Position numbers and translations under genes: made by a program. A DNA stretch of 64,000 nucleotides from Bacteroidetes bacterium GWA2_40_15 (lineage in GTDB: Bacteria > Bacteroidota > Bacteroidia > Bacteroidales > VadinHA17), in the NCBI GenBank assembly GCA_001768195.1, contig MENI01000097.1:4908-68907 (forward strand). The letters run 5' to 3'. The notes beneath the pieces are model-generated. The model was given only the letters and a program-made list of their open reading frames with translations, did not search any database and was not told the origin of the DNA. This document shows positions 17,688 through 62,036 of this stretch, one piece after another; position 1 is the stretch's first letter, and the number at the start of each line of letters is the position of its first letter.

Positions 17688-19115
17688 CTAAAGTCTTTCT
17701 ATTACAAAGATGTCGTGCCTGTCGAGATTCAGCCAGTATTTGATAGAGTTCTTCCTGACCAGTTCCCAGTAAATGTCACTGTCGAGGCCATAGACAAAGT
17801 TTATCTCCTTTAGTTCATTGCTTATGAGCGATGCAATTTCAGGTTTAAGGGTCAGCCTTATTTTTCGGTTCATATAAATGAATTCGGCTGAAGGTAATGC
17901 AGGCGATTCATGCTTAACAGTAAGCAGACCGTGGCCCGGTGTTGCTCCGGTACTTACCTGGAGACCATCATTCATGCAGCTCATTGGAGGTTCGGAGCCT
18001 GCTGATGAGGTGACCATAAATTCATCCACCCCTGTATTGAAATATTCTCTGGCCCTGATCCCCATTTTAACACCTATTATGGCAAAAACACCAAGATGCC
18101 TGTGTAACTCATTTGCGATCACTCCTGACACCCATTCATCCAAACCGTATTTGTTGATTATATCCGTTACAGATGGTTCAATATCTGCGAAATAGAATGA
18201 AGGAGTCAGCGGAAATTCCTTTATAACCTGATTTCTTTCAACCGTTTCCCCTTTAAGTATCCGCAGAGTCTTTTCCCTGATCAGGCCTATGTCGGCAGGC
18301 GATGCAACAATGCCTTTCGCTGTTGTTTCGGCATTGAATAATTGAGGGTAATGCATGTAAACTGGTATCGCATCATCAGTCATTCCAAATGAAAAATTGT
18401 GGTTCTTTGCCTTTTCTGATGTAAAAAATTCTGTTAATCTCTTTGCATACGCAGAATGTACAAATGAGATATTGTTGTTTAGGTCAGCGTCATATAATTT
18501 CATGTCGCCTGTTCCTTTTACTACGGTTACCTGGATGCCACTTCCGAAAATTTTACTGACAGCCTGAGCATCAATCTTATAGTTAAAGCCCTTTTTGTCA
18601 TTCAGCCCGTCAGCGCTCCATATGATCCCTTTTACCTTTTGCCTGAACTGAGGGATCTCCGCATAAGCAGAAGCTGCAGTTGAGAGGCTTCCGAGGCATA
18701 CCATACTGATTTTATTATTCTCTGTGCTCAGTATTTCGCGTATAACACCAATACATTCAGGGGCTATATCTCCTGATAATTGATTTTCCTCTCCCCATAC
18801 ATAGTTCAATGCCAATGGGAGATCAGGCGATCTGAATTTACATGAAGTGTTTATCCCTACAGGTATGCCCTCGTGGTAAAATCCATTCAGAAGGCTTTTT
18901 ACTTTTACCCAGGCGGCCTTTGCATTCAGCGCTCCGGGTGAAACGGTTATTGCAAGCACCCTGATGTCGGGCGAGGCAAGCAGCATCGAAATTGCTTTCA
19001 TGTCATCTACTCCTGCATCAGTGTCAACTATGATATAATGCCGGGGCTTCCACGGATGTGAAAAAGCAGTAACAGCAAAACCAAACGTCAGCAGCAGAAT
19101 AAATATCCTTTTCAT
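17688..19115 (-). CDS. secreted fusion protein: inosine-uridine nucleoside hydrolase-like N-domain plus FmdE-like C-domain
   Basis: The ATG at 19115 (the track TTG is at 19124) gives signal peptide MKRIFILLLTFGFAVTAFS. The IUNH signature is IIVDTDAGVDDMKAI. The C-terminal ~150 aa (HRHLGVFAIIGVKMGIRA..SCMNDGLQVSTGATPGHGLL) follow the FmdE-domain pattern. Confidence 0.6.
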   Translation of the reverse strand: MKRIFILLLTFGFAVTAFSHPWKPRHYIIVDTDAGVDDMKAISMLLASPDIRVLAITVSPGALNAKAAWVKVKSLLNGFYHEGIPVGINTSCKFRSPDLPLALNYVWGEENQLSGDIAPECIGVIREILSTENNKISMVCLGSLSTAASAYAEIPQFRQKVKGIIWSADGLNDKKGFNYKIDAQAVSKIFGSGIQVTVVKGTGDMKLYDADLNNNISFVHSAYAKRLTEFFTSEKAKNHNFSFGMTDDAIPVYMHYPQLFNAETTAKGIVASPADIGLIREKTLRILKGETVERNQVIKEFPLTPSFYFADIEPSVTDIINKYGLDEWVSGVIANELHRHLGVFAIIGVKMGIRAREYFNTGVDEFMVTSSAGSEPPMSCMNDGLQVSTGATPGHGLLTVKHESPALPSAEFIYMNRKIRLTLKPEIASLISNELKEINFVYGLDSDIYWELVRKNSIKYWLNLDRHDIFVIERL

Positions 19116-19133
19116 AAGTGACAAATTTCTTAT

Positions 19134-19829
19134 ACTTAAAAATACAAAATAAAAATTGGAAAAAGTGATGTATTTTGTTTATATTTAAGTCGTTAACGCA
19201 AAAATCACAAACAAAAAAACATCACTTTAAAGATGAAAAATATAAAAAGAAAATAAAACGACCAAACAAAAGTTGTCAAAGCTTCATTTACAGGAAGTAA
19301 CATCACTAAATACGATGGACTGAATATGGTAGCAAAATACATGAATCGCCAAAACATCATAAGATCCATTAGCTCAACTTTTCCCATTGAGTGGCACAAT
19401 GCCACAAAGTTTTGTATCAACCCTGTTAAATCTGCCTTGCAGAATAGATTATTTAGCAGGATCAACCAGGTTTTGATGGCAATCACACTGGCCTCTATAA
19501 GTGGTATAGGTCAGATTTGTAGGATTGCCGCCTTTAGTTATAAGGCAAATGGATGGGACAAACCACGGGTATTTAAGGCCATGTGGATGGTAAAGGAATA
19601 GGTACGGGTTACCTATCTTGGACAGAAACGATATTACCGGTTTCCCAGTATGTTTGTTACATCAGCAGCTTTAATATGGATGCTATTGAATTGCATGAGC
19701 TTTACAAACAACGCTCTACCAGTGAGACATGGATTGAGCAGGTAAAAGGGCATGTGATGGCAGGGGAAACATTAACCTTGGCGAATTACGTTCCTTTAGC
19801 TCAAAAAATTCAATTTGAATATTTAAGTT
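19134..19829 (+). mobile_element. internally deleted IS remnant (IS4/IS1380-like DDE transposase fragments), copy 1
   Basis: The 88-nt left end 19134-19221 matches 22242-22329, with roughly ten mismatches by eye. The right end 19789-19829 matches 22578-22617. The termini are inverted (acttaaaaat.. vs ..atatttaagt). The broken frames include IELHELYKQRSTSETWIEQVKGHVMAGETLT. Confidence 0.7.
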
Positions 19830-19851
19830 TAACTCTTTATTTATATTTTCT

Positions 19852-22122
19852 ATGGATAACACGCTGATGAAATACAATCTGATTTTTGCATTATTCTTGA
19901 TGACCCTCTTGCTCACCGCCTGTACAAAGCAACCTGCGAAGATGGACGGGCGCGGCAAACCTGGATTTCGCGTTCGTTCCGACTTTGCTGCGACGTTAAA
20001 CTCTGAAGTAGGATGGGCTGGTGCACTGAATGAGAATGTTCCCATTTACGCAGACCAACCTTTCCGCATTCGATTTGAATTGGAGCGCCCTGCAGGACCA
20101 ACTAGTGGTCGGCAATTCCGGCTTCAGTACAGACTAAATAGCGGAGTCTGGACCAATGTCGAGGCACACGACTTCCCCCACCCGGAACGCTATATTAGTA
20201 TGAATTTTAAACAACTTGAGGCCGGCACGCAACCTGAGGGATGGACTGTTGTGAAGGGCAATTCCTCAGAATTGGTCGTAGTGACCGATAACCATCAGAA
20301 CGCTCTACGAGCCAAATCGGATAAAGAGCCGCTTGTATGGCTCTTCACCCCACCTTGGGAGGCTACAGAAATTGCATCTCAATTCCGATTGGCCCCTGAA
20401 AATCACCGCGGGATCGCGTTCGTTGTGGGCTATGCCGATATCAGTAACTACTGTCTCGTACAGCTCGAGCCTACACCTGGCACGATACGTGTGAGCCATA
20501 TTATTGATGGGATAGAAAGGATTCTCGTCGAGAGAACCACCGTTATTACTACTGGCCAATGGCTCGAAATCGAAATTGAAACCGAAAACCGCAGGATTGA
20601 AATTAATTTCCAGAATGATATGCTGGAAATGGATGTCAAGCTTGATACTGATATCCCGCACTCAAAACTTGGATTTCAGGTTCCGTCGAATAGTACAATC
20701 GATTTTCGGAAATTCTCCTTCAATGGAGAAGCCAAAACCCCGCGAATCAGTATAGTTACCTGCCCAGCCTACGAGCACGGCATGTCAACCAACGATCTGT
20801 TGAAAGGTTCGGCCGCACCATTCCAGGCTGGCACTGGTATTAGTTTCGTCGAATTTACGCCTGTATGGAGCGGCGCGAATGTTCATGGCGAGTTCGAATG
20901 GCCGGTGGTCATTCGCCGGTTTGCTGATGGGGCAGTGACCAACAATGAAGGTGATACATTCGAATTTAGGATGATCGACACTGAAGGAACCGCACTGGGA
21001 AATGAACATAATCCAGCACTCCGCCTGTCCATCCCGCTCGGCCATGTTGGCGGGACATTCGTAGAAACCCCTGGCCGGATCGGCCCTTGGCAGGCCTCCA
21101 ACGGAAATCTTTACTTCATCATGGAACCGACAGAGACGGATAATATGTTCATGATGATAAAGTCCACGGACAACGGACGTACCTGGTACGAAATGGATGG
21201 AGCAAACCGCCCCAGGACAAATGACCTCGAATCGGTTGACTCGCGACTATTGGATAACACGATTCATATTATTCACCAAGTGACCCAATCTGTGCGTTAT
21301 CATACTTTCCGTACGTCTGATCATCCAACCCACCCTGATACCTGGGCTATCCGGGACGAGTTGGCTGGATCCGTGAACGCCATCGCCCAGAATGCGTCGA
21401 TGGTAGTGCGCTCAGACGGAAGCATAGTCGCGTTTTATCTTGGTACAGAAAAAATACATTACAGTATACGCTCGCCCGAAGGCACATGGAGCCAGGTAAA
21501 AACACTTGATCTCGACCTTCAACCCAACCAGGCTGGGCCACAAGCAGTGCTCGGTGCAAACGACATTATTCATCTCGCCTATTATGGAACCGATGGCACC
21601 ATCTGGTATCGACGGTTTCTTCCCGATGGTACCTTCACGTCAAGGCAACAGGTAGCGACAGGTGCCGGGACTTCAAGGGCGGAATATGGCGCAGTGCTTC
21701 CACTTCTCTTTATTCCCCACAAGAATGAGGTCGTCATTATTTATCGGCTCTTAAGCGGGAACCTTTGGGAACGACGGATTGTAAATGATGCCCCGCCTAC
21801 GGATGCAGTCATGGTAACCGATCTAAGGGTGGTCACCGACGCCGTCGACTCACATCAAGCCGGTGCCGATGCTGCCATCGACGGCGAGACAGTGTATGCG
21901 ATTTTCATTGCTGAGTCTTCCCGAAGCATCCTCAGCACGCACGACAATGGTGGATGGCAACCTCCGAAGCTCCGGGTCGACAACATACTTGGATCGTGGG
22001 TCCGTGGAAACGTATACACCCGCAAAGATGGCATGAGAGTATATGGATACATCTATGATGCGGGCTCCGATGGCGGTACAGGCATGAATCGATTCAGTGA
22101 GCTTGTATTGAACGGCAGATGA
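19852..22122 (+). CDS. lipoprotein with ConA/LamG-like (DUF1080-like) middle region and BNR/Asp-box beta-propeller-like C-terminal half
   Basis: 756 aa with lipobox LLLTAC. Canonical Asp-box STDNGRTW at nt 21163-21186. The middle string GWTVVKGN..ALRAK..GIAFVVGY is jelly-roll-like. G+C and CG-dinucleotide content are visibly higher than in the flanks. Confidence 0.55.
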   Translation: MDNTLMKYNLIFALFLMTLLLTACTKQPAKMDGRGKPGFRVRSDFAATLNSEVGWAGALNENVPIYADQPFRIRFELERPAGPTSGRQFRLQYRLNSGVWTNVEAHDFPHPERYISMNFKQLEAGTQPEGWTVVKGNSSELVVVTDNHQNALRAKSDKEPLVWLFTPPWEATEIASQFRLAPENHRGIAFVVGYADISNYCLVQLEPTPGTIRVSHIIDGIERILVERTTVITTGQWLEIEIETENRRIEINFQNDMLEMDVKLDTDIPHSKLGFQVPSNSTIDFRKFSFNGEAKTPRISIVTCPAYEHGMSTNDLLKGSAAPFQAGTGISFVEFTPVWSGANVHGEFEWPVVIRRFADGAVTNNEGDTFEFRMIDTEGTALGNEHNPALRLSIPLGHVGGTFVETPGRIGPWQASNGNLYFIMEPTETDNMFMMIKSTDNGRTWYEMDGANRPRTNDLESVDSRLLDNTIHIIHQVTQSVRYHTFRTSDHPTHPDTWAIRDELAGSVNAIAQNASMVVRSDGSIVAFYLGTEKIHYSIRSPEGTWSQVKTLDLDLQPNQAGPQAVLGANDIIHLAYYGTDGTIWYRRFLPDGTFTSRQQVATGAGTSRAEYGAVLPLLFIPHKNEVVIIYRLLSGNLWERRIVNDAPPTDAVMVTDLRVVTDAVDSHQAGADAAIDGETVYAIFIAESSRSILSTHDNGGWQPPKLRVDNILGSWVRGNVYTRKDGMRVYGYIYDAGSDGGTGMNRFSELVLNGR

Positions 22123-22241
22123 AGTAAACTCCGGTGATTAGGCCGCCGAATTCGAAAAGCCAGATATGAGCTTCAAATAGAGGCGTAAAAATGATACAAA
22201 ATCACTCTAACTATTCGTGCTGTATCGCAAATTAAGATAAC

Positions 22242-22617
22242 ACTTAAAAATGTAAAATAAAAATTAGAAAAGGTGATGTATTATGTTTATATTTAAGTTG
22301 TTAACCTATAAATCACAAACAAAAAAACAACCACCAGCCGGAGGGTGCACCAGAAGAAAAATAGATTTACAAAGCAGGAACATCGCTGTTTTATTGAGTG
22401 GTTTATTGCCGTACCTGCAAAGATAACCAGAAACGGGCATCAAACAGAACTTAAAATGAATGAATATCAATTTTATAAAGCCGAATGGGAGGAGCTTGAC
22501 AGGCTCATTTAAACGGCATAAAAAGAAAGAAAGGAGGTAAATATGAGAACCAACACGAGAGTGTATGGACGAAGTACGATCCGTTAGCTCAAAAAAATCA
22601 ATTTGGATTTTTAAGTT
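22242..22617 (+). mobile_element. internally deleted IS remnant, copy 2 (same family and orientation as copy 1)
   Basis: It shares both ends with copy 1. The internal frame FIEWFIAVPAKITRNGHQTELKMNEYQFYKAEWEELDRLI* resembles the extreme C-terminus of IS4/IS1380-type transposases. At about 376 bp it is too short to be autonomous. Confidence 0.65.
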
Positions 22618-22742
22618 ATAAAATTACTGTTTTATATTATAACAATCTGTAACTGGTTTTGTCAGTTTTTATTGTGAAAATAATCACACTATGTTTCTTG
22701 TGAGAGATATTTGCATATCTTAAGCCTCAAATTTTTTAAATT

Positions 22743-24269
22743 ATGAAGAGATTTCTCTTATGGTTTTTACCGGGACTGATTGTAGGCGTTTTGCTGATAC
22801 TTGGTGGGGGTAAGGCAATAGATACAACTTCATCAAATGACTTTTGCATGTCGTGCCATATTCACCCCCTGGCCGATGCAGCCTGGAAGAAGTCAGTTCA
22901 TTATGATACGAAGTCAGGATCGCGGATCGGATGTGTTGAGTGCCATCTTCCTCCTAAAGGCGATAATTATTTATGGGCAAAAGCTACTACAGGATTAAGG
23001 GATCTTTGGAGCTATTGGACCAAGGACTCTGCATCGTTTAACTGGGAAGAGCGCGGAAGACTTGAAATTGCCAGGGGGCATGTTTTTGAGAGCAGCTGTA
23101 CTAAATGTCATGTGAACCTTTTCCCTGCGAAGCTTACAAAGGAAGGGGAGAATGCACATCTCTATTATACCCAGACAAAAAAGACCGATGAGCTTCACTG
23201 TATAAATTGTCATCTGAATGCAGGGCATCATATTGAAGGGTATACCCATGGAAGCAATGCAACTTTCGGAGCTACTTCTGCTGCGCCAAAAGAGATCTTT
23301 ACCGTACCTGCAGAAGTATCAGAATTCATAAATTACACCGAGAAGATACCCGGCTCTTCAGTTGCTTTCAATATGGTGGCTGTTCCGGGAGGTAAATTCA
23401 GAATTGGCAGTCCTGATGATGAACCATTCAGGAAGCCTGACGAAGGACCGAAACGTGAGGTGGAGATCAGCCCTTTCTTTATGGCCGAAATTGAAGTCAC
23501 CTGGGATGAATATCTTGCATTCTATGTACAGACTGCTGCAGAAGGTCGAACGACTGATACTGAGGGAACAAGAAAAATAAAGTCTGATAAGACCGATGCA
23601 ATTTCCGGAGCAACTCCTCCCTACGGACAACCCGATCAGGGATGGGGAATGGGAAGACGCCCTGCTATATCCTTCTCTTATCATGCCGCAGAAACATATT
23701 GTAAATGGCTTAGTTCCGTTTCCGGGAAAACTTACCGTCTGCCTACTGAAGCGGAATGGGAATATGCCTGCAGGGCAGGTTCTGATGGCCCATATTTCTT
23801 CCCCGGAGATCCAAATAAATTTCAAAAGACAGGACTGAAGGCTAAGCTCTCCAAAAACGATACTGCAGTTATAAATACATACGTTGTATATAAAGCAAAC
23901 AGCTTATCCAAGACGCAACCACCCGACAGAGCAAAACCCAATCCTTTCGGCCTGAGAAACATGCCGGGAAATGTTGCCGAATTCTGCTCAGACTGGTATC
24001 AGCCCGATGCCTATTCACTATATCCTGATGGGGTTGTGAAGGATCCGAAAGGACCTGATAGCGGTGATGAACATGTTGTAAGAGGGGGTTCATTCCAGAG
24101 CACTGCAGATGTTCTGAGAAGTGCGGCCCGCGATTATACCCGTACAGAAGCATGGCTGAAAACCGACCCTCAGATGCCAAAGAGCATCTGGTGGTACTCC
24201 GACTGTTTCAATGTTGGTTTCAGGGTAGTATGCGAGTTTGATGAGAAAACAGGAAATGTTTCACCATGA
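22743..24269 (+). CDS. membrane-anchored NapC/NirT-type tetrahaem cytochrome c fused to an FGE/SUMF1 (formylglycine-generating-enzyme-like) domain
   Basis: N-terminal TM helix. Four CxxCH motifs (CMSCH, CVECH, CTKCH, CINCH) within the first ~170 aa. The C-terminal ~300 aa carry FGE-sulfatase patterns (MVAVPGGKFRIGS, YRLPTEAEWEYACRAG, GNVAEFCSDWY, RGGSF). Confidence 0.8.
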   Translation: MKRFLLWFLPGLIVGVLLILGGGKAIDTTSSNDFCMSCHIHPLADAAWKKSVHYDTKSGSRIGCVECHLPPKGDNYLWAKATTGLRDLWSYWTKDSASFNWEERGRLEIARGHVFESSCTKCHVNLFPAKLTKEGENAHLYYTQTKKTDELHCINCHLNAGHHIEGYTHGSNATFGATSAAPKEIFTVPAEVSEFINYTEKIPGSSVAFNMVAVPGGKFRIGSPDDEPFRKPDEGPKREVEISPFFMAEIEVTWDEYLAFYVQTAAEGRTTDTEGTRKIKSDKTDAISGATPPYGQPDQGWGMGRRPAISFSYHAAETYCKWLSSVSGKTYRLPTEAEWEYACRAGSDGPYFFPGDPNKFQKTGLKAKLSKNDTAVINTYVVYKANSLSKTQPPDRAKPNPFGLRNMPGNVAEFCSDWYQPDAYSLYPDGVVKDPKGPDSGDEHVVRGGSFQSTADVLRSAARDYTRTEAWLKTDPQMPKSIWWYSDCFNVGFRVVCEFDEKTGNVSP

Positions 24270-24397: not shown

Positions 24398-25744
24398 ATG
24401 AAAAAATTCAGCATTTCAAGACGTAATTTTCTTGGTAAAGCAGCAACAGCAGGTGTAGCAGGTATTGTGGTTCCATCAATCATTGCAGGCTGTTCACGCG
24501 AAAGTAAAAAGGTCGTTGCTGTTCCGACAATGCTTGACCAGGCTCCTGACGGGCCGGTGTTAAAAGCAGGTGTGATAGGTTGCGGCGGACGTGGAACCGG
24601 CGCTGCTATTAACTTTCTGAGTGCCGGCCCGAGTCTGCAGGTTACTGCATTGGCCGACACATTCCAGGATCGGGTTGATTCCTGCCGGGAAGCTATAAAG
24701 AAAGAAAAGGGACAGGATGTTCCCATTGAAAATTGCTTTGTTGGTTTCGATGCTTACCAGAAAGTAATTGATTCAGGAGTTGATATTGTAATTCTTGCCA
24801 CTCCTCCATATTTTCGTCCTGAGCACCTTGCTGCCTGCGTCCAGGCCAAGAAGCATATCTTTGCTGAAAAACCTGTTTGTGTTGATCCTGTTGGCGCAAG
24901 GTCAGTCATGGCAACTGCCCAGAAAGCAAAAGGACTTGAACTGAGCATTGCAACAGGTACCCAGAGGAGGCATCAGCGCGACTATGTTGCTACTTGGCAG
25001 CAGGTTGCACAGGGACTCATCGGGGATATCGTTGGAGGAACAGTATACTGGAATGGCGGCAAGCTATGGCATCGCGATCCAAACCCGAAATGGAGCGAAA
25101 TGGAATACATGATACGTAACTGGGTGAACTGGACCTGGCTTTCCGGCGATCACATTGTGGAACAGCATGTTCATAACCTCGATGTACTGAACTGGTTTAC
25201 AGGGTCACACCCGGTTAAAGCTGTTGGTTTCGGATCAAGGCTCAGAAGGGTGACAGGTGATCAGTATGATAATTTCAGTATAGACTATACCTTTGAAAAT
25301 GGAATTCATGCTCACAGCATGTGCAGGCAGATAAACGGCTGTGTCAACAACGTATCCGAAAGATTACAGGGAGCAAAAGGCTCCACAAACTGCAGGAACG
25401 TGGTTCTCGACTTAACCGGAAATGAACTCTGGAAGTACGGGTATCCGCTTGATAAAGACAGCAAACCAACCAACAATGTAAGCGTTGATCCTTATGTTCA
25501 GGAACATATCAACCTGGTTACCGCCATTCGCAGCGGTCAGGCATTCAACGAACTGGAAAACACCGCCATCTCAACTATGGTTGGCATTATGGGACGCATA
25601 TCGGCCTATACAGGCAAGGAGACAACTTACGAAGAGATGATGAACTCCGACCTTAAGCTTGGGCCTGAAGTATTTGATTTTGGACCTGTTAACATCCCTA
25701 AGGAAGTACCGGTCGCCGGTCTTCCATACGTTCCCGGGCAGTAA
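24398..25744 (+). CDS. Tat-exported Gfo/Idh/MocA-family oxidoreductase (probable lipoprotein)
   Basis: Twin-arginine leader SRRNFLGKAATAGVAG followed by IIAGCS. Rossmann motif VIGCGGRGTG and the EKP motif (FAEKPV). Confidence 0.8.
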   Translation: MKKFSISRRNFLGKAATAGVAGIVVPSIIAGCSRESKKVVAVPTMLDQAPDGPVLKAGVIGCGGRGTGAAINFLSAGPSLQVTALADTFQDRVDSCREAIKKEKGQDVPIENCFVGFDAYQKVIDSGVDIVILATPPYFRPEHLAACVQAKKHIFAEKPVCVDPVGARSVMATAQKAKGLELSIATGTQRRHQRDYVATWQQVAQGLIGDIVGGTVYWNGGKLWHRDPNPKWSEMEYMIRNWVNWTWLSGDHIVEQHVHNLDVLNWFTGSHPVKAVGFGSRLRRVTGDQYDNFSIDYTFENGIHAHSMCRQINGCVNNVSERLQGAKGSTNCRNVVLDLTGNELWKYGYPLDKDSKPTNNVSVDPYVQEHINLVTAIRSGQAFNELENTAISTMVGIMGRISAYTGKETTYEEMMNSDLKLGPEVFDFGPVNIPKEVPVAGLPYVPGQ

Positions 25745-25786
25745 CAAACAGTCGGTTTTAGATGATATAACCAATAAGATTCTGTT

Positions 25787-26737
25787 ATGATAGATTCAAG
25801 AAGGAATTTCATAAAAAGAGCCACATTAGCAGGAGCCGCCATTTTGGCTGCTCCTGCAGTTTTTGGATCCCAGGACGGGAAGAAGAAAACCAAAGCAAAA
25901 ACCCCCGATGCGGTTACACCATTCAAACTGAAGTATGCACCTTCAGTAGGGATGTTCCGCGAACATGCAGGCAATGATATTATCGATAATATCAAATTCT
26001 GTAATGACATGGGTTTCAGAGCCATGTTCGATAACGGGCTTATGGGTCGTTCTCCTGAAGACCAGGTAAAGTATCTGAGTGAGCTGCAGCGGTTAGGGAT
26101 GGACTTTGGGCCATTCGTCCTTTACGCCGATTTTTCAGTTACCTCATTTGTACTTAACAAGCCTGAGACACGTGAAATGCTCATCAATAAGATGAAAGAG
26201 GGTGTTGAGGTTTCAAAAAGGACCGGGGCAAAGCAGGCTCTTGTTGTTCCCGGAAGATATGATGAAAAGCTTGACCGCGATTTTCAGACTGCTAACGTGA
26301 TCGATAACCTGAGGTACTGTTGTGATATCGTTGAACCGGCAGGACTGACAATTGTACTGGAACCTCTCAATACCCTGAGGGATCATCCGGGTCTGTTCCT
26401 TACAGGAGTGCCGCAGACTTATTCAATTTGCAGGGCAGTGAACCGCCCCTCATGCAAAATAAACCTGGATTTATATCATCAGCAGATAACAGAGGGAAAT
26501 CTGATTCCGAACCTGGATGCTGCATGGAGCGAGATAGGAGCATTGCATTGTGGCGATAATCCTGGCAGGATGGAGCCAACAACCGGAGAGATAAACTATA
26601 AGAATGTTTTTAAGTTTATCTATCAGAAAGGCTACCAGGGAGTTATATGTATGGAGCACGGCATGAAAAACAGGACAAAGGAGGGAGAGGCAAGAGTTAT
26701 AGAGGCTTACCGTGAATGCGATAGTTTCGAAGTGTAA
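25787..26737 (+). CDS. Tat-signal xylose-isomerase-like TIM-barrel protein (sugar phosphate isomerase/epimerase family)
   Basis: Leader SRRNFIKRATLAGAAILAAPAVFG. The body resembles the hydroxypyruvate isomerase/AP_endonuc_2 fold (VLEPLN.., DLYHQQ). Confidence 0.7.
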   Translation: MIDSRRNFIKRATLAGAAILAAPAVFGSQDGKKKTKAKTPDAVTPFKLKYAPSVGMFREHAGNDIIDNIKFCNDMGFRAMFDNGLMGRSPEDQVKYLSELQRLGMDFGPFVLYADFSVTSFVLNKPETREMLINKMKEGVEVSKRTGAKQALVVPGRYDEKLDRDFQTANVIDNLRYCCDIVEPAGLTIVLEPLNTLRDHPGLFLTGVPQTYSICRAVNRPSCKINLDLYHQQITEGNLIPNLDAAWSEIGALHCGDNPGRMEPTTGEINYKNVFKFIYQKGYQGVICMEHGMKNRTKEGEARVIEAYRECDSFEV

Positions 26738-26758
26738 CTGATAACATTAAAACTAAAA

Positions 26759-27877
26759 ATGAAAAAGATTTTATATTTCGGACTGGTGCTGTTATTAGCA
26801 GTCTTGTTTTCAGATGCTGCCAATTGCCAGCTTTCCCGGCTCTATGTCGGAAAATATGCTAAGGAAGGCGAAAAAGGGCTTCACATAATTGATGTTGATC
26901 TTTCGAAGGGGACCTTTACCACAGTTTCAGAGTCGGATGCAGGTACAAATCCATCTTACTTTTGTATCTCAAAGAAAAGAAGCCTCATTTATGCTGTAAA
27001 TGAAGTCGGCAGGATAAAAGATGTGCGGGCGGGAAGCGTTTCTACTCTCCGCTTCGATGCAAAAAACGGGAAAACTGAAAAACTGAATGAAATTTCAGTT
27101 CCTAACGGAGGACCATGCTATATCTCTTTATCTGCTGATGAAGGCTTCCTCCTGGTAGCCAATTACGGAGGTGGTTCTGTAGCAGTTGTAAGGCTTGATG
27201 CAAACGGAATCCCCTTTGAAGTGAGCGATACAATAATATATAAAGGAGAGGAGGGCACTCGCTCCCGTGGCCATATGATAGCTCCCGGTTTAGGTGGGAA
27301 GAAGATATATGTGACTGACCTCGGCCTCGACAGGGTTGCAGTATATGACCTTGATCCAGTTTCAGGAAAGCTGAAGCTTATAAATAATGGATATGCAAAG
27401 CTTGCAAAAGGAGCAGGCCCGCGTCATTTTGCTTTCGGGAAAGACGGCACCAGAATGTATGTAATTAATGAGCTTAATTCAACCATGACTGTTTTTAATG
27501 TCGGTAACTCAGGGGAACTGAATGAAATACAGACACTTTCCACTCTCCCTGAAGGCTTCTCAGGAAAGAATTTCTGTGCCGATGTCCATGTAGCCGGGAA
27601 TGGTAAATATGTTTATGGTTCAAACAGAGGTCATAACTCTATCGTGACATATAAGGTCGGACCTGAAGGGAAACTCACTCTTGTTGGTCACACTTCATGC
27701 GGAGGAGACTGGCCGCGTAATTTTGTTCTCGATCCTTCAGGAAAATACCTTATAGCCGGAAATCAAAACTCCGGAAATATTTCACTTTTCAGCCTTGATA
27801 AAAAAACAGGACTTCCTCAGCTTCCATCAAAGGATTTTAAGATAGAATCCCCTTCATGCCTGAAGTTTATTGAGTAA
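26759..27877 (+). CDS. secreted 7-bladed beta-propeller lactonase (6-phosphogluconolactonase/YbhE-like family)
   Basis: Signal peptide, then repeated motifs NPSYF.., VANYGGGSVAV, GAGPRHFAF and GSNRGHNSI typical of Pfam Lactonase. Confidence 0.75.
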   Translation: MKKILYFGLVLLLAVLFSDAANCQLSRLYVGKYAKEGEKGLHIIDVDLSKGTFTTVSESDAGTNPSYFCISKKRSLIYAVNEVGRIKDVRAGSVSTLRFDAKNGKTEKLNEISVPNGGPCYISLSADEGFLLVANYGGGSVAVVRLDANGIPFEVSDTIIYKGEEGTRSRGHMIAPGLGGKKIYVTDLGLDRVAVYDLDPVSGKLKLINNGYAKLAKGAGPRHFAFGKDGTRMYVINELNSTMTVFNVGNSGELNEIQTLSTLPEGFSGKNFCADVHVAGNGKYVYGSNRGHNSIVTYKVGPEGKLTLVGHTSCGGDWPRNFVLDPSGKYLIAGNQNSGNISLFSLDKKTGLPQLPSKDFKIESPSCLKFIE

Positions 27878-27886
27878 TTAACCTGT

Positions 27887-27906
27887 CCCCCTTCTGCAAG
27901 AGGGGG
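27887..27906 (+). terminator. intra-cluster GC hairpin (ccccct-tctgca-agaggggg)
   Basis: Read from the sequence between the lactonase stop and the next start. No T-run, so it could be an attenuator or a REP-like element. Confidence 0.25.
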
Positions 27907-27923
27907 TATGATACATATTAGAT

Positions 27924-30407
27924 ATGCAATCAAGATGCTGTATATCAGTTATATTGTTGCTTTTGATAAGTTTTTCATCTTTTGCACAGGAGATAACCCA
28001 TTCCCGTGATGAAAAGGCAGTTGTTATTGCCGACAAATCAGGTAACCTTCAGATAGAAATTGATTACAGTAAAGGCTGCAGGATCAGCAGACTGATAGTT
28101 AAAGGGAGGAATACTCTTTCTGCTTCAGGAGCCTTTACTTCGGTAAAAACAGCGGATAATTTATATACCTCGCCTGAGTCATCTGCCCGGGCAAAGGTTG
28201 TGAAACGTAAAAACGGCCTTACAATACGCAATATTATCTTCGGAGATGAAGAGATGACTGTTTCAGAGACCTGGGAATTCGCAATTGCCGGCAGCACTAT
28301 TGAATGGAAGATAAACAGGCAGTACAGAAATCGCGGGACACTCGATGATATGGCCATGCCTGCCTGGCACTTTGAAAAACTCAACACATGGAAGGCAGGT
28401 ATCCTGAACACAGGTGGCGTGGTATGGTGTAAATATTTTGAGAATCTGAATGACACATATGGAGTACATACCAACGGAGTAACATTCTGGGAAACTGAAT
28501 CAGGCAATGGATTAAGGATTGAAGCAGATTCTCAGACAGGAGGTCACATTGCCTGCTCATTCAGCCATGCTCAGGATGAAGAGTTTAAACTCACTCAGTA
28601 TCTTACAACTGATGAACTGGGGCAACGTTACAACCTGAGCAGGTTCGTAAGTAAAAAGAAGGACGTATTTGCTCCCTTCAATGTGGATATGGGTGTTGCA
28701 TCGGTTATACTTAATATCAGCTATGTAGACTATGATAAGGAGTATGACAGGGGAACTCTGCCCGGAATAGATGAAGTGGCGGTCAGGGAACTTTTAAACA
28801 CTACAGGACGATATGGCGTAGTTGACAGAAACATTACAGGAGGCAACGGATGGGTAACCAACTGGAAGTGCCTGCATGAACCATTCTTTGCACAAACAGG
28901 AATGGCAATAAATGATAAAAACTATCTTAGAAATCTCGCTTCAACACTCGATCAGGAACGGGACCAGGCAATTGAAGCCGATGGCAGGGTGCTGGCACGA
29001 TGGCACGACATTCCTGAAGCTCAGAAGAGCAATTACAATTTCAAAACAGGCTACTACGACTGCCCCTGGGGATACACTATTGATGCCCAGCCCTCGCAGG
29101 TGATAAATACAGTTGAGCTGTTTCATCAGACAGGTGACCTGAACTGGCTCAGATCACATAAGGAGAATTGTGAAAAGGTTCTGAACTGGCTTATTAAAAG
29201 AGATTCCAACAATAACGGGATCTTTGAAATGCTTAATGATAATACCGGAGAAAACAAATGCAGCGACTGGATAGATGTTGTATGGGCAAGCTTCGAGAAC
29301 GCTTTTGTTAATGCACAGATGTATGAGGCGCTGAATCTTTGGTCCGGGTGCGAATCTATCCTGGGAGATACGGGTAAAGCAGCCTACTATTCAAGGATCG
29401 CCGACAGGTTGAAAGTGGCTTTCAATAAACCTGTGCAATACGGAGGGTTCTGGTACCCTGAAAAAAGGCAATATATCTACTGGAGGGATAAGGATGGATC
29501 GCTGCATGGTGATAACCTGGTAACTCCTGTAAATTTTGCAGCCATAGCTTTTGGGCTTTGTGAAGATCCCGTACGAATAAAGGAGATACTTGACCAGATC
29601 GAGGAAAAGACTTCTGCCGAGAAGCTGTTTCACTGGCCCCTTTGCTTTGAATCATTCAGGGAAGAGGAGGTCTACAAGCCTGTAAACTGGCCGTTTCCAA
29701 ACTATGAGAATGGGGATATTTTTCCAACATGGGGTTATCTCGGTGTGCGATCGTATGTGAAATACGATAAAACTATTGCTCTAAAATATATTAAGAATCT
29801 TCTGCAACAGTATAATAAGGACGGGCTTTCCTCGCAGCGTTTCAGCAGGACTACTCAGCAAGGAAAGGGTTCTGATATTCTTGCCGGTTCAAGCACAACA
29901 ATTGCTGCTCTGTACAGGGATATTTATGGAATAAGGCCTAAATGGAACAGGTTCGGTATTGAACCCAATATGCTAAAAGAGCTTAATGGAACGGAATTCA
30001 GTTATACATTTACCGGAAAGAAATATAATGTCAGACTGAATGAGGATAAATATGAACTCTCCAATGACGATTTCACTATTACTGCCGGGCAGAGCTTTGG
30101 AGTCAGTACTGATGGAAATAACCTGCTATATTACCCGGGGAATAAAGATATTGCCCGGTTGTCAGTAACCAAAAGTATTATTGACCCGGTTAAAGTAGAT
30201 ATAGCACAGTGGGATGAAGGGATAATGGAGTGGTCGATTCTGTCGCCAGGGATCTTCAGGTTCATTGTATCGGGTCTTAAGCCAGGCAGCCAGTACAGGC
30301 TGAAGACAGGAGCTGATGAAGAGAAGCTTGTAATTTCCGGTTCAGATGGCAATCTTAATTTTGAATATACATGTCAGGATATGGTAAAATTCACTCTGAT
30401 CAGGTAG
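27924..30407 (+). CDS. secreted 827-aa protein with an (alpha/alpha)6-barrel glycoside-hydrolase-like C-terminal half
   Basis: Signal peptide. The central and C-terminal strings SDWIDVVWASFENAFVNAQMYEALNLW and TPVNFAAIAFG resemble GDE_C/GH63/GH78-type six-hairpin enzymes. The family is not resolved by eye. Confidence 0.45.
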   Translation: MQSRCCISVILLLLISFSSFAQEITHSRDEKAVVIADKSGNLQIEIDYSKGCRISRLIVKGRNTLSASGAFTSVKTADNLYTSPESSARAKVVKRKNGLTIRNIIFGDEEMTVSETWEFAIAGSTIEWKINRQYRNRGTLDDMAMPAWHFEKLNTWKAGILNTGGVVWCKYFENLNDTYGVHTNGVTFWETESGNGLRIEADSQTGGHIACSFSHAQDEEFKLTQYLTTDELGQRYNLSRFVSKKKDVFAPFNVDMGVASVILNISYVDYDKEYDRGTLPGIDEVAVRELLNTTGRYGVVDRNITGGNGWVTNWKCLHEPFFAQTGMAINDKNYLRNLASTLDQERDQAIEADGRVLARWHDIPEAQKSNYNFKTGYYDCPWGYTIDAQPSQVINTVELFHQTGDLNWLRSHKENCEKVLNWLIKRDSNNNGIFEMLNDNTGENKCSDWIDVVWASFENAFVNAQMYEALNLWSGCESILGDTGKAAYYSRIADRLKVAFNKPVQYGGFWYPEKRQYIYWRDKDGSLHGDNLVTPVNFAAIAFGLCEDPVRIKEILDQIEEKTSAEKLFHWPLCFESFREEEVYKPVNWPFPNYENGDIFPTWGYLGVRSYVKYDKTIALKYIKNLLQQYNKDGLSSQRFSRTTQQGKGSDILAGSSTTIAALYRDIYGIRPKWNRFGIEPNMLKELNGTEFSYTFTGKKYNVRLNEDKYELSNDDFTITAGQSFGVSTDGNNLLYYPGNKDIARLSVTKSIIDPVKVDIAQWDEGIMEWSILSPGIFRFIVSGLKPGSQYRLKTGADEEKLVISGSDGNLNFEYTCQDMVKFTLIR

Positions 30408-30440
30408 ATTTGTATCCAGATAATAAATACTTTAATCTGC

Positions 30441-31703
30441 ATGCAACTTATCAACATCAGTCTTTCAGGAATAGTAAGGGTAAAGAGAAAATTTGTGCTT
30501 GCTTTGTTCCTGCTTTTCATTATAGTCTTGCCTGTTATAACCGGCTTCAGCCCTGGGAAAAGGAAACCGTATAAAAACTATGTGCTTCTCGTTTCCCTTG
30601 ATGCTTTCAGGTGGGACTATCCTGATTTGTACAACACTCCCAACCTTGACATACTGGGAAACGACGGAGTCAGAGCGGAAAGGATGATCTCCTCTTTTCC
30701 CACAAATACATTTCCAAATCATTATTCCATAGCAACAGGCCTCTATCCGGACCATCACGGACTAATAAGCAACAGTTTCCCGGCTCCCGACCTTGGGCTG
30801 TTTTACCGGATAGGCGACAGGGAAGCAGTTGAGAATCCGGACTTCTACGGAGGAGAACCAATGTGGGTTACTGCTGAAAAGCAGGGCGTTAAAGCTGCTT
30901 CATTCTTCTGGGTAGGATCGGAAGCACCTGTCGGAGGAATGCATCCGACATACTGGAAGAAGTATGACGAATCAGTGGGTTATGGTGAGAGGATAGATAC
31001 TATTGTAAAATGGCTCGGTTATCCTGAGCAGAACAGGCCTGAACTTTTAACTCTCTACCTTGATGAACCTGATGCAACCAGCCATGATTTCGGTCCTGTT
31101 TCAGCGGAAACCGGGGAAGTTGTGATGAGACTTGACAGTCTGATCGGAGCGTTGCGGAACAAACTTAGTTCTCTGCCTTACGGCGACAGAATAAACCTGA
31201 TAGTGATATCTGATCATGGTATGGCTTCGGTATCGCCTGAAAAGTATATTAACCTGAAATCGCTTGTTCCCGACAGAATGATTGCATCTATATCAGGAGG
31301 TAATCCTGTATATCTGATAAATCCTGCAGAAGGGAAAGCCGACAGTTTACTTCTTCTTATAAACAGAGCATCGGGTGTAAGAGCCTGGAGGAAATCAGAA
31401 CTTCCTTCAAAATGGCACTATGGTACCCATCCAAGGATCCCTGAGATTGTTGTTGTTGCCGACAGCTCGTGGAGCATCGGAACCCGGCCTTCTGCATTCT
31501 CAAACAAAGGTGCTCATGGTTACGATAATTATAATCCCGATCTCTTTTCGATTTTTTATGCAGCAGGTCCTTCATTTAAAAAGAATTACAGTTTCAGCGA
31601 GCTTAAGAATACAGATGTTTACAACCTTGTCTGTCGTATCCTCAATATTAAGCCCGCCGCTAATGATGGCAACCGAAAAAATATCAGGAAGTTGCTCAGA
31701 TAA
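30441..31703 (+). CDS. ectonucleotide pyrophosphatase/phosphodiesterase (NPP, alkaline-phosphatase superfamily), membrane-anchored
   Basis: LVSLDAFRWDY, FPTNTFPNHYSIATGLYPDHHGL and ISDHGM motifs. Confidence 0.8.
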   Translation: MQLINISLSGIVRVKRKFVLALFLLFIIVLPVITGFSPGKRKPYKNYVLLVSLDAFRWDYPDLYNTPNLDILGNDGVRAERMISSFPTNTFPNHYSIATGLYPDHHGLISNSFPAPDLGLFYRIGDREAVENPDFYGGEPMWVTAEKQGVKAASFFWVGSEAPVGGMHPTYWKKYDESVGYGERIDTIVKWLGYPEQNRPELLTLYLDEPDATSHDFGPVSAETGEVVMRLDSLIGALRNKLSSLPYGDRINLIVISDHGMASVSPEKYINLKSLVPDRMIASISGGNPVYLINPAEGKADSLLLLINRASGVRAWRKSELPSKWHYGTHPRIPEIVVVADSSWSIGTRPSAFSNKGAHGYDNYNPDLFSIFYAAGPSFKKNYSFSELKNTDVYNLVCRILNIKPAANDGNRKNIRKLLR

Positions 31704-31732
31704 TTTAATTTTGAACCTATATATTCATATCC

Positions 31733-33283: not shown

Positions 33284-33318
33284 AATACCTGAATTATTAA
33301 TGAAATAATTATAACATT

Positions 33319-61968: not shown

Positions 61969-62036
61969 TTGAGTTGATAAATGATATGGATAAAGTTTTA
62001 GGACTTGATGAGGTTTTATCTATTATTAAGTAATAA

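What the first reader, a model, noticed from the sequence alone, without database searches (positions are those of the whole stretch)
19852..22122. Cargo protein: lipoprotein combining a ConA/LamG (DUF1080-like) module with a BNR/Asp-box propeller-like half, function unknown
The protein has lipobox LLLTAC and a ~180-aa jelly-roll-like region (GWTVVKGN..ALRAK..GIAFVVGYADISNY..). Its C-terminal ~330 aa have one canonical Asp-box (STDNGRTW) and repeated beta-strand-like segments (IHLAYYGTDGTIWYRRF, VVIIYRLLSGNLWERR). I could not see sialidase catalytic motifs such as FRIP.

DUF1080-type domains are annotated as 3-keto-disaccharide hydrolases. This gene sits immediately upstream of a periplasmic Gfo/Idh/MocA plus TIM-barrel cluster. 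A functional link is conceivable but unproven.
Basis: partly seen in the sequence, partly recalled or inferred. Interest (0 to 1): 0.55.

Follow-up and report, generated by a model that had tools for sequence, protein, structure and literature searches.

The report
IS-flanked exported propeller protein, phosphorus-scavenging family
This gene encodes a real, intact lipoprotein from a large, unnamed protein family that in other bacteria sits beside outer-membrane importers and secreted phosphatases, which suggests a role in harvesting organic phosphorus; here it is a horizontally acquired orphan between two decayed insertion sequences and is not tied to the sugar-oxidation genes downstream.

Summary
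It has a lipobox (LTAC, Cys24), a CBM66/DUF1080-like jelly roll (aa 114-292), one canonical Asp-box (STDNGRTW, aa 438-445), a C-terminal beta-propeller and no FRIP motif.

A confident AlphaFold model (pLDDT 93.4, pTM 0.88) adds three points:
- The propeller has seven blades.
- A conserved split beta-sandwich (aa 36-113 plus 293-396) was missed.
- The jelly roll is an optional insertion in that sandwich.

The sandwich-plus-propeller core defines a large family: 1556 clusters at 50% identity. It has no Pfam, NCBIfam or PDB sequence match.

Full-length orthologues are 57-83% identical across phyla. In 22 of 71 genome loci they lie within 6 kb of purple acid phosphatase, alkaline phosphatase or beta-propeller phytase genes. 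In 30 of 71 they lie near TonB-dependent receptors, often in tight operons. Distant relatives are phage virion proteins.

In this Bacteroidota genome the gene has 50% GC against 41% and lies between two decayed IS1380-type copies.

No other locus supports the proposed Gfo/Idh/MocA link.

Most likely role: an exported, carbohydrate-type enzyme or binder that feeds TonB-dependent organic-phosphorus scavenging. The biochemistry is unproven.

The parts
19852..22122 (+). Complete gene: 756-aa exported lipoprotein of an unannotated family
   Evidence: ORF list and translation. 821 homologues; the best 120 are mostly full length and 56-83% identical. AlphaFold model mf54a3c7bc8a6 has pLDDT 93.4 and pTM 0.88.
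19852..19923 (+). Signal peptide with lipobox L-T-A-C (Cys24)
   Evidence: Read directly from the translation. Helix at aa 5-21 in the model. A lipobox Cys is seen in Bacteroidota, Acidobacteriota, Desulfuromonas and some Opitutales orthologues; several Alphaproteobacteria have AxA-type signal peptides instead.
19957..20190 (+). Beta-sandwich, first half (aa 36-113); family-wide conserved R40, R42, N50, W55, R72, R74
   Evidence: Strands in the model. Conservation across 75 sequences. In the 570-600-aa relatives this segment runs straight into aa ~293.
20191..20727 (+). Inserted jelly roll (aa 114-292), CBM66/DUF1080(LamG)-like
   Evidence: PF06439 at E 4e-4, below the cut-off. CBM66 levanase by profile at E 6.6e-4. 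Foldseek TM 0.72-0.77. Absent from many family members.
20728..21039 (+). Beta-sandwich, second half (aa 293-396); conserved E347, E349, R373
   Evidence: Model strands 299-301, 344-354, 369-376 and 389-393 at pLDDT above 90 with the deep alignment. Conservation.
21040..22119 (+). Seven-bladed beta-propeller (aa 397-756); family-wide invariant G400, E405, E425, S438, G442, E460, Q513, Y577, G744
   Evidence: Seven groups of strands in the DSSP output. Best PDB matches are the 7-bladed PLL/PHL lectins (TM 0.64-0.73) and GH145 (TM 0.60-0.62). Invariant columns. Blades are mostly not alike in sequence; only blades IV/V reach z 4.7.
21163..21186 (+). Single canonical Asp-box, STDNGRTW (aa 438-445), in blade I
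   Evidence: Motif scan and translation. S438 and G442 are invariant, and K437, D440 and W445 nearly invariant, across the family.
19134..19830 (+). Decayed IS copy A (IS1380-type), ending 22 bp before the start codon
   Evidence: Shares an 88-nt left end and a 48-nt right end with copy B. Imperfect terminal inverted repeats. Frameshifted transposase fragments. Its segments align at 75-87% to intact or near-intact ~1.65-kb copies in L097, L101 and L103. The 438-aa transposase of the L097 copy matches PF13701 at E 1.3e-38.
22242..22618 (+). Decayed IS copy B of the same element, in direct orientation, 120 bp after the stop codon
   Evidence: It keeps the left end, the 3' end of the transposase gene and the right end.

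Best explanation
**What it is.** The gene encodes an outer-membrane-anchored or periplasmic lipoprotein. It belongs to a large, so far unnamed family built from a split beta-sandwich and a seven-bladed Asp-box beta-propeller. In this subfamily a CBM66-like sugar-binding-type jelly roll is inserted into the sandwich.

**Native setting.** In Alpha- and Gammaproteobacteria, Acidobacteriota and Verrucomicrobiota the gene sits with a TonB-dependent outer-membrane importer and secreted phosphatases (purple acid phosphatase, alkaline phosphatase, beta-propeller phytase).

**Most likely mechanism (inferred).** The protein recognises, and probably cleaves, an anionic phosphorylated carbohydrate or polyol substrate outside the cytoplasm. 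Candidates are phosphodiester-linked glycopolymers or inositol-phosphate-type compounds. It would use a single pocket at the propeller centre lined by the invariant Glu405, Glu425, Glu460, Gln513 and Tyr577. The products would then be imported and dephosphorylated by the neighbouring enzymes.

**This copy.** In this groundwater Bacteroidota genome the gene was acquired horizontally as a stand-alone unit. It is now bracketed by two decayed IS1380-type insertion sequences, the upstream one probably supplying the promoter.

**What is shown:** the architecture, the family size, the neighbourhood pattern, and the IS flanks and GC anomaly.

**What is inferred:** catalysis, the nature of the substrate, the position of the pocket, the promoter, and regulation by phosphate.
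For: **Architecture**
- AlphaFold model with pLDDT 93.4 and pTM 0.88.
- The jelly roll matches CBM66, and the propeller matches carbohydrate-binding or carbohydrate-active 7-bladed propellers: PLL lectins at TM ~0.7 and GH145 at TM ~0.6.

**Family**
- 1556 representative clusters at E<=1e-3.
- The core has no Pfam hit in the window protein or in 48 distant members, and no NCBIfam hit.

**Genomic context**
- Of 71 comparable loci, 22 carry a PAP, alkaline phosphatase or phytase within 6 kb, 30 carry a TonB-dependent receptor, and 19 carry both.
- The order PAP-TBDR-target, with overlapping or abutting genes, occurs in five alphaproteobacterial loci (L056, L057, L058, L072, L075).
- TBDR-AlkPhos-target occurs in L029, L037 and L107. 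TBDR-target-TBDR occurs in L105.
- Forms lacking the jelly roll occur in the same context: L049, L066, L074.
- Pho-box-like 11-bp-spaced sites lie 51-101 bp upstream of those five operons, with per-locus p of 0.003-0.17.

**Enzyme-like rather than lectin-like**
- The blades are mostly not sequence repeats.
- The conserved polar residues are single, unrepeated positions rather than a motif repeated in each blade.

**Horizontal transfer**
- 78% identity to a KSB1 protein and 57-64% to Verrucomicrobia, Acidobacteriota and Desulfuromonas.
- The gene's GC is 7-8 points above its flanks in most of the low-GC hosts (five of six Bacteroidales-type loci and KSB1), but within about 6 points, mostly under 4, in the high-GC hosts.
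- The IS copies are documented.
Against: - No biochemical evidence exists for any member.
- Only about a third of loci show the phosphatase context. In Bacteroidota, KSB1 and Desulfuromonas the gene is an orphan with unrelated neighbours.
- TonB-dependent receptors are abundant in the genomes concerned, so part of that association could be chance.
- The Pho-box signal is weak outside one clade.
- The adjacent two-component systems are not PhoBR equivalogs.
- Phage virion relatives show the module is not intrinsically tied to phosphorus.
Confidence: 0.45

Rival explanations
1. Non-catalytic binding protein (lectin-like). The propeller and the CBM66-like module only capture a substrate at the cell surface or in the periplasm and hand it to the TonB-dependent receptor, as surface glycan-binding lipoproteins do.
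For: - The best structural matches are lectin propellers (PLL/PHL, AAL/FleA) and a carbohydrate-binding module.
- The gene is often adjacent to TonB-dependent receptors.
- Relatives sit in phage tail modules, where receptor binding is the usual role.
Against: - Lectin propellers have blade-repeated binding motifs, but here the blades are mostly dissimilar. The family-wide invariants are unique acidic, Tyr and Gln positions.
- Lipid anchoring is not conserved; several Alphaproteobacteria have cleavable signal peptides.
- The protein spreads and persists as a stand-alone gene without a receptor.
Confidence: 0.2
2. A new metal-dependent phosphoesterase. The propeller itself would hydrolyse phosphomono- or phosphodiesters, functionally like PhoX or beta-propeller phytase, and complement the neighbouring phosphatases.
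For: - The phosphatase/phytase neighbourhood.
- Several invariant Glu/Asp residues, plus many His and Arg invariant within the orthologue group, are compatible with a Ca/Fe site and phosphate binding.
- A self-sufficient enzyme would explain successful transfer as a single gene.
Against: - At E<=1, Pfam returned only the weak PF06439 match, so neither PhoX (PF05787) nor Phytase (PF02333) was hit.
- No phosphatase or phytase propeller appears among the top 50 structural matches.
- Phage virion relatives keep the same invariant residues, which fits glycan chemistry better.
- The signal peptides seen in the sampled N-termini show no obvious twin-arginine (Tat) motif of the kind typical of PhoX (Tat export of PhoX is from general knowledge).
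Confidence: 0.15
3. A glycan-degrading enzyme (hydrolase or lyase) with no specific link to phosphorus. The phosphatase neighbours would reflect the general clustering of TonB-dependent nutrient-scavenging genes.
For: - GH145-like and BNR_2-like fold signals (three of 60 distant members carry PF13088).
- The neighbouring receptor belongs to the TonB-Xanth-Caul subfamily (TIGR01782), known from general knowledge for carbohydrate uptake.
- Some loci hold GH2, GH5, BNR_2 or sulfatase genes.
Against: - Purple acid phosphatase, alkaline phosphatase and phytase are rare genes, yet 27 of 693 flanking ORFs encode them, often in direct translational contact with the target.
- No glycoside hydrolase family recurs among the neighbours.
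Confidence: 0.15
4. One reading: a DUF1080-type 3-keto-disaccharide hydrolase module working with the downstream periplasmic Gfo/Idh/MocA oxidoreductase and TIM-barrel genes. A variant of this is a GH33-type sialidase.
For: - A weak PF06439 match.
- Gfo/Idh/MocA and xylose-isomerase-like TIM-barrel genes lie 2.3-4 kb downstream.
- One Asp-box, and weak whole-chain Foldseek matches to NanB/NanC sialidases.
Against: - The PF06439 score is below the curated cut-off, and the module is an optional insertion.
- No Gfo/Idh/MocA or TIM-barrel neighbour recurred in any of the 71 other loci.
- An IS remnant and a NapC/NirT-FGE gene separate the two here.
- The gene is foreign by GC content.
- It has seven blades rather than six, no FRIP motif, and no Sialidase or BNR Pfam hit. 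TM to sialidases is only 0.25-0.37 with rmsd of 18-19 A.
Confidence: 0.04

Closest known systems
CBM66 (B. subtilis levanase SacC module) / Pfam PF06439 DUF1080, '3-keto-disaccharide hydrolase'
   Same: The same LamG-like jelly-roll fold for aa 114-292. Foldseek TM is 0.72-0.77 at 18-20% identity, and the family profile gives E 6.6e-4.
   Different: The score is below Pfam's gathering cut-off. Here the module is inserted inside another domain and is dispensable in the family. Ligand-binding and catalytic residues were not compared.
Seven-bladed PLL/PHL lectins of Photorhabdus, and GH145 (BT3686) / PL25-type seven-bladed propellers
   Same: The same seven-bladed propeller geometry: TM 0.64-0.73 for PLL/PHL and 0.60-0.62 for GH145. 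All are carbohydrate-recognising proteins.
   Different: Sequence identity is only 10-14%. The PLL lectins have repeated blade motifs and several binding sites, whereas this protein has mostly non-repetitive blades and one Asp-box. The GH145 catalytic residues could not be checked.
GH33 bacterial sialidases with an N-terminal lectin domain (NanB, NanC, BDI_2946, PG_0352)
   Same: The overall arrangement of a lectin-like jelly roll plus an Asp-box propeller in an exported protein. Foldseek E values are around 1e-8 to 1e-11.
   Different: Sialidases have six blades, 3-5 Asp-boxes and a FRIP motif with an arginine triad. Here there are seven blades, one Asp-box, no FRIP and no Pfam sialidase hit, and the global TM is only 0.25-0.37.
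Pho-regulated organic-phosphorus scavenging loci: TonB-dependent receptor next to beta-propeller phytase, PhoX/PhoA/PhoD, or purple acid phosphatase
   Same: The same genomic setting in about a third of the loci, with export to the periplasm or outer membrane.
   Different: The protein is not homologous to any of those enzymes: Pfam returned only the weak PF06439 match, so none of their families was hit. Its step in the pathway is unknown.
ISEcp1-type (IS1380 family) mobilisation and activation of an adjacent gene
   Same: An IS1380-type element (PF13701 transposase) ends 22 bp upstream of a foreign gene. This layout is the one known, from general knowledge, for ISEcp1-blaCTX-M.
   Different: Both copies here are decayed and non-autonomous. 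A second copy lies downstream in direct orientation, and no clear target-site duplications were found. The IS is absent from all other loci carrying the gene.

Membership tests
Pfam PF06439 (DUF1080 / 3-keto-disaccharide hydrolase) | HMM score at or above the curated gathering cut-off (26.8 bits) | tested here: not met
   20.9 bits, E 4e-4, aa 120-289. Only 4 of the 120 listed close homologues carry a precomputed PF06439 hit.
CBM66 / LamG-like jelly-roll fold | Structural superposition on a solved CBM66 module | tested here: met
   Foldseek TM 0.72-0.77, rmsd 3.1-3.6 A over ~160 residues for most chains. Family profile E 6.6e-4 to 4b1l/4azz.
CBM66 / LamG-like jelly-roll fold | Conservation of the fructan-binding residues of SacC CBM66 | not tested
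   No residue-level structural alignment or model coordinates were available.
GH33 sialidase | FRIP ([FY]RIP) motif carrying the first arginine of the triad | tested here: not met
   No [FY]R[IV]P anywhere in the protein.
GH33 sialidase | Six-bladed propeller with several Asp-boxes, and a Pfam BNR_2/Sialidase match | tested here: not met
   Seven blades, one canonical Asp-box and no such Pfam hit at E<=1. TM to sialidases is 0.25-0.37.
BNR/Asp-box repeat proteins (PF02012) | S-x-D-x-G-x-T-W motif in a strand 3-4 hairpin of a propeller blade | tested here: met
   STDNGRTW at aa 438-445, between strands 434-438 and 446-448. There is only one copy, and the Pfam repeat model itself gave no hit.
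Beta-propeller phytase (PF02333) / PhoX (PF05787) | Sequence match to the family model | tested here: not met
   Not among the Pfam results at E<=1. No phytase or PhoX structure appears in the top 50 Foldseek matches.
GH145 / PL25 seven-bladed propeller enzymes | Seven-bladed fold | tested here: met
   TM 0.60-0.62, rmsd 5.7-5.9 A to 5mum, 5muk and 5mvh.
GH145 / PL25 seven-bladed propeller enzymes | Family catalytic residues in place | not testable with these tools
   No model coordinates or residue-level alignment were returned.
Bacterial lipoprotein (signal peptidase II substrate) | Hydrophobic N-terminal region followed by a lipobox [LVI][ASTVI][GAS]C | tested here: met
   LLLTAC with Cys24. 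A Cys at the same place occurs in many orthologues. No dedicated predictor was available.
Pho regulon member | Pho box upstream and induction by phosphate limitation | tested here: inconclusive
   Pho-box-like sites lie upstream of five alphaproteobacterial operons, with p of 0.003-0.17 each. Nothing was tested for the window copy, and there are no expression data.
Composite or IS-mobilised cargo (IS1380 family) | Flanking copies of one IS with terminal inverted repeats and a family transposase | tested here: met
   Two copies share 88-nt and 48-nt ends. The terminal repeats are imperfect. The intact relative encodes a PF13701 transposase at E 1.3e-38. Both copies are decayed, and target-site duplications were not found.

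The most novel reading that the evidence does not exclude
The sandwich-plus-seven-bladed-propeller core is a new enzyme family. It would depolymerise phosphodiester-linked or otherwise phosphorylated glycopolymers, such as teichoic-acid-like polymers or phosphoglycans. Phage virions would use it to get through cell-surface polymers. Diverse bacteria would have recruited it, under phosphate control, as the first extracellular step of a TonB-dependent pathway that mines such polymers for phosphorus.
Probability: 0.12. Interest if true: 0.8.

Novelty: new variant of a known kind. Interest (0 to 1): 0.58.

Why it matters
Organic phosphorus turnover in soils, sediments and the ocean is attributed to a short list of enzyme families (PhoA, PhoD, PhoX, PafA, phytases, purple acid phosphatases).

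Here a widespread, strongly conserved exported family with no annotation at all is repeatedly found in operons with those enzymes and with TonB-dependent importers. This points to a missing step in phosphorus scavenging, either substrate capture or depolymerisation.

The family now has a confident structural model and a short list of invariant residues to mutate.

It is also shared with phage virion proteins and moves between phyla as a single gene. Both would be of interest for how nutrient-acquisition modules evolve.

For this window specifically, the result removes a misleading link to the neighbouring sugar-oxidation genes.

Tried and rejected
- **Sequence-level identification failed.** Pfam gave only the sub-threshold PF06439 hit, NCBIfam gave nothing, and PDB phmmer gave nothing.
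- **Rfam** found nothing in 18900-23000.
- **Conserved neighbourhood with the window's own neighbours** (NapC/NirT-FGE, Gfo/Idh/MocA, TIM barrel, lactonase, phosphodiesterase) was rejected. Only one unrelated locus shares an FGE-domain protein.
- **PhoBR next to the gene** was rejected. The adjacent two-component systems score far below the PhoB/PhoR equivalog cut-offs.
- **A strict Pho-box scan of all loci** was noisy. The position-restricted test is only suggestive.
- **The IS travelling with the gene** was rejected. The IS ends are absent from the 93 other loci held at that point.
- **A larger mobile element around the gene** was not seen. The flanking ORFs scanned encode ordinary metabolic proteins, with no integrase or conjugation genes.
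- **Cultured phages and plasmids** gave no tblastn match in INPHARED or PLSDB.
- **Source names for distant members** were none beyond 'hypothetical protein'.
- **Literature searches** for a described family in phosphate-starvation contexts found nothing relevant.
Full report

The window has a 756-codon ORF at 19852..22122 on the + strand. Its translation begins MDNTLMKYNLIFALFLMTLLLTAC and carries a lipobox with Cys24.

- GWTVVKGN, ALRAK and GIAFVVGYADISNY lie in aa 130-200.
- One canonical Asp-box, STDNGRTW, lies at aa 438-445.
- There is no FRIP-type motif.

The gene is conspicuous by composition. Its GC is 0.50 (GC3 0.52), against 0.41 for the rest of the window, 0.37-0.45 GC3 in neighbouring genes and 0.27-0.41 in the adjacent spacers.

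It is not a chance ORF. A search of 5.8 billion proteins found 821 relatives; the best 120 are mostly full length and 56-83% identical, and every one that carries a name is called 'hypothetical protein'.

**2. What do domain libraries say?**

- Pfam gives a single, sub-threshold match: PF06439 (3keto-disac_hyd/DUF1080) on aa 120-289, E 4e-4, 20.9 bits against a cut-off of 26.8.
- NCBIfam gives nothing.
- PDB sequences give nothing for the single protein.
- A profile of 30 orthologues gives one meaningful PDB hit: the CBM66 module of Bacillus subtilis levanase, E 6.6e-4, aa 171-281.
- The core of the protein, everything except the jelly roll, has no Pfam match in the window protein or in 48 distant relatives scanned individually.
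- Only three of 60 distant members carry a precomputed BNR_2 hit.

**3. Structure**

A first AlphaFold run used 30 close orthologues. It gave pLDDT 78.7, with a poorly defined region at aa 295-395.

After adding distant relatives (75 sequences, alignment A4) the model reached pLDDT 93.4 and pTM 0.88. It shows:
- a signal peptide helix;
- a beta-sandwich made of two separated segments (aa 36-113 and 293-396);
- a jelly roll (aa 114-292) inserted between them;
- a propeller of seven four-stranded blades (aa 397-756), with the Asp-box in the strand 3-4 hairpin of blade I.

Foldseek against the PDB gave these matches:

| Part | Match | Score |
|---|---|---|
| Jelly roll | CBM66 | TM 0.72-0.77 |
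| Propeller | Seven-bladed PLL/PHL lectins | TM 0.64-0.73 |
| Propeller | Six-bladed fucose lectins | weaker than the above |
| Propeller | GH145 enzymes BT3686 / BACINT_00347 | TM 0.60-0.62 |
| Whole chain | GH33 sialidases with a lectin domain (NanB, NanC, PG_0352) | significant E values, but TM 0.25-0.37 and rmsd 18-19 A |

However, the protein is not a sialidase: it has seven blades rather than six, one Asp-box and no FRIP motif.

**4. The family**

A profile search of 1.84 billion cluster representatives found 1556 clusters at E<=1e-3 and 317 at E<=1e-30.

The conserved unit is the split sandwich plus the propeller. Many members are 570-600 aa and simply lack the jelly roll (alignment A2). 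Others are 1000-2300-aa multidomain proteins with PKD, cadherin-like, RTX or repetitive C-terminal regions.

Across 75 diverse sequences:
- The invariant residues are G400, E405, E425, S438, G442, E460, Q513, Y577 and G744.
- The nearly invariant residues include R40, R42, N50, W55, R72, R74, E347, E349, R373, D449, D458, D496, R520, D553 and D736.

The blades are mostly not sequence repeats of each other. From the strand topology, most of the conserved polar residues sit at the start of the inner strands or at the end of the second strands. That places them on one face around the propeller axis. The pattern resembles a single active site more than a multivalent lectin.

**5. Relatives in phages**

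Thirteen IMG/VR viral contigs encode distant members, at 32-44% identity to P0240.

- In L088 the 979-aa member lies directly after the tape-measure protein and a minor tail protein, and before another minor tail protein and a tail-fibre-like protein.
- In L104 a 586-aa member lies between the capsid and tail modules.
- The best match in the viral structure library is an uncharacterised Caudovirales protein, with rmsd 3.4 A over 386 columns.
- No cultured phage or plasmid record contains a relative.

The module is therefore also used on virions, where the usual job is to bind or cut cell-surface polymers.

**6. Genomic context of the orthologues**

I fetched 75 distinct loci from named genomes. 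I called ORFs and clustered all flanking proteins.

The only recurrent neighbours, identified by Pfam or NCBIfam, are listed below. Counts are over all fetched loci.

| Neighbour | Loci | Identification |
|---|---|---|
| TonB-dependent receptor | 30 | TIGR01782 TonB-Xanth-Caul, above cut-off |
| Purple-acid-phosphatase-like metallophosphoesterase | 16 | Pur_ac_phosph_N + Metallophos |
| Sulfatase-family protein | 8 | Pfam Sulfatase |
| OMP_b-brl_4 receptor-like barrel | 7 | Pfam OMP_b-brl_4 |
| Beta-propeller phytase | 5 | Pfam Phytase |
| Alkaline phosphatase | 4 | Pfam Alk_phosphatase |

Counting distinct loci:
- 22 of 71 have a phosphatase within 6 kb.
- 30 of 71 have a TonB-dependent barrel.
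- 19 have both.
- 27 of 693 flanking ORFs are phosphatases.

The arrangements are operon-like:
- PAP-TBDR-target, with abutting or overlapping genes, in five alphaproteobacterial loci.
- TBDR-AlkPhos-target in L029, L037 and L107.
- AlkPhos-target in L046 and L068.
- Target next to phytase and a receptor in Acidobacteriota and Woeseiaceae.
- TBDR-target-TBDR in Wenzhouxiangella.

Forms lacking the jelly roll occur in the same context (L049, L066, L074). The association therefore belongs to the core, not to the DUF1080-like module.

Upstream of the five PAP-TBDR-target operons there are 11-bp-spaced (T/G)TCA(C/T) half-sites, 51-101 bp before the start codon. The per-locus probability is 0.003-0.17 against random windows of the same locus. 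This suggests PhoB control in that clade, but it is not proof.

Elsewhere (Bacteroidota, KSB1, Desulfuromonas, some Opitutales) the gene stands alone among unrelated genes, in one case behind a transposase.

N-termini vary between lipoboxes and AxA signal peptides. Export is therefore conserved, but lipid anchoring is not.

**7. The situation in this window**

The genome is a groundwater Bacteroidota. Its fumarase is 100% identical to that of 'Bacteroidetes bacterium GWE2_41_25' and GWF2_41_9.

The gene is bracketed by two direct repeats:
- 88 nt at 90% identity: 19134-19221 and 22242-22329.
- 48 nt at 88% identity: 19782-19829 and 22570-22617.

These are the two ends of one insertion sequence:
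- The ends form imperfect terminal inverted repeats.
- The upstream copy contains frameshifted transposase fragments.
- Metagenome contigs hold intact or near-intact ~1.65-kb copies, to which the two remnants align piecewise.
- The intact element encodes a 438-aa transposase of the IS1380 type: PF13701 at E 1.3e-38.

Copy A ends 22 bp before the start codon, and copy B begins 120 bp after the stop codon. The 2.4-kb segment between them is the high-GC stretch.

The same GC excess (+7 to +8 points) is seen for most orthologues in other low-GC hosts (Bacteroidales, Rikenellaceae, KSB1). In Acidobacteriota, Opitutales and Proteobacteria the gene's GC stays within about 6 points of the flanks, mostly within 4. 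Identity to a KSB1 protein (78%) is as high as to other Bacteroidota.

Together this argues for acquisition from a higher-GC lineage, in which the gene belongs to phosphorus-scavenging clusters.

The IS is not found next to the gene in any other locus. No integrase or conjugation genes were found among the flanking ORFs scanned. 'Cargo' therefore means only this small IS-bounded unit.

**8. The proposed link to Gfo/Idh/MocA**

Downstream of the gene lie, in order:
- IS remnant B;
- a NapC/NirT cytochrome fused to an FGE-sulfatase domain;
- Gfo/Idh/MocA;
- a xylose-isomerase-like TIM barrel;
- a lactonase;
- a six-hairpin glycosidase-like protein;
- a type I phosphodiesterase;
- a glycerol kinase-type (FGGY) sugar kinase;
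- a MIP channel.

None of these recurs next to orthologues. Given the IS boundary and the foreign composition, adjacency here is best read as an accident of insertion.

**9. How it most likely works**

Shown:
- It is an exported three-domain protein.
- It has a carbohydrate-type jelly roll and a seven-bladed propeller.
- Its core is conserved from phage virions to bacteria.
- In many bacteria it sits in tight operons with TonB-dependent importers and secreted phosphatases.

Inferred:
- It recognises, and probably cleaves, an anionic phosphorylated carbohydrate or polyol substrate outside the cytoplasm.
- The products pass through the receptor and are dephosphorylated by PAP, alkaline phosphatase or phytase.
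- In this genome it acts alone and is transcribed from the IS remnant.

My estimates are:
- about 0.65 that the family is functionally tied to phosphorus scavenging;
- about 0.45 for the whole statement, including a processing or recognition role for such substrates.

**10. Novelty and verdict**

The folds are known, and the genomic theme (receptor plus phosphatases) is known. The family itself is unannotated, large and strongly conserved, and it has no characterised member, no Pfam model and no solved relative.

I rate it a new variant of a known kind of system: an additional component of TonB-dependent organic-phosphorus scavenging. Interest is moderate to high (0.58).

Its interpretation is partly supported: the domains and the 'cargo' status hold, but the functional link does not.

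Noticed in passing
window 19134-19830 and 22242-22618; intact copy at L097:7091-8737: Two decayed copies of a ~1.65-kb IS1380-type insertion sequence, whose 438-aa transposase matches PF13701. Related copies occur in ten metagenome contigs. In copy A the transposase reading frame is broken and internally deleted.
   Followed up: yes
window 22743-24269 (+): An unusual fusion protein: an N-terminal NapC/NirT-type multihaem cytochrome (aa 6-164) joined to an FGE-sulfatase (SUMF1-like) domain (aa 210-465). The best NCBIfam similarities are to PvdO, GldK and EgtB-type domains, all far below their cut-offs. A similar FGE-domain protein lies about 4 kb from the orthologue in the Acidobacteriota locus L043.
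   Followed up: partly
window 17688-19124 (-): A 478-aa protein combining an inosine-uridine nucleoside hydrolase domain with an FmdE domain, transcribed divergently from the IS remnant.
   Followed up: no
window 24398-34023 (+): A same-strand run of genes: Gfo/Idh/MocA oxidoreductase, xylose-isomerase-like TIM barrel, 7-bladed lactonase, six-hairpin (rhamnosidase-like) protein, type I phosphodiesterase/nucleotide pyrophosphatase, FGGY sugar kinase and MIP channel. It looks like a catabolic locus of its own and is unrelated to the finding.
   Followed up: partly
L067:4641-6443, L027 and L077 (minus strand, between the TBDR and the target): A 444-601-aa protein with no Pfam or NCBIfam match recurs between the TonB-dependent receptor and the target gene in three alphaproteobacterial loci. 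It may be another unannotated member of the same loci.
   Followed up: partly
L018:6001-8269 (Bacteroidales MAG); also L068, L030, L035, L051: In several loci the orthologue is split into two or three ORFs, or a second partial copy lies nearby. These may be frameshifts, pseudogenes or assembly errors, or local duplications.
   Followed up: no
P0196 (6179 aa) and P0161 (3465 aa): The small N-terminal sandwich segment (aa 30-100) and the jelly roll (aa 163-285) occur as 21 and 13 tandem copies respectively in giant proteins. Both are therefore mobile modules in their own right.
   Followed up: no
window 57427-57480, 61936-61989, 63327-63380: Three copies of a 54-nt direct repeat (70-80% identity) in the low-GC right end of the window.
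   Followed up: no
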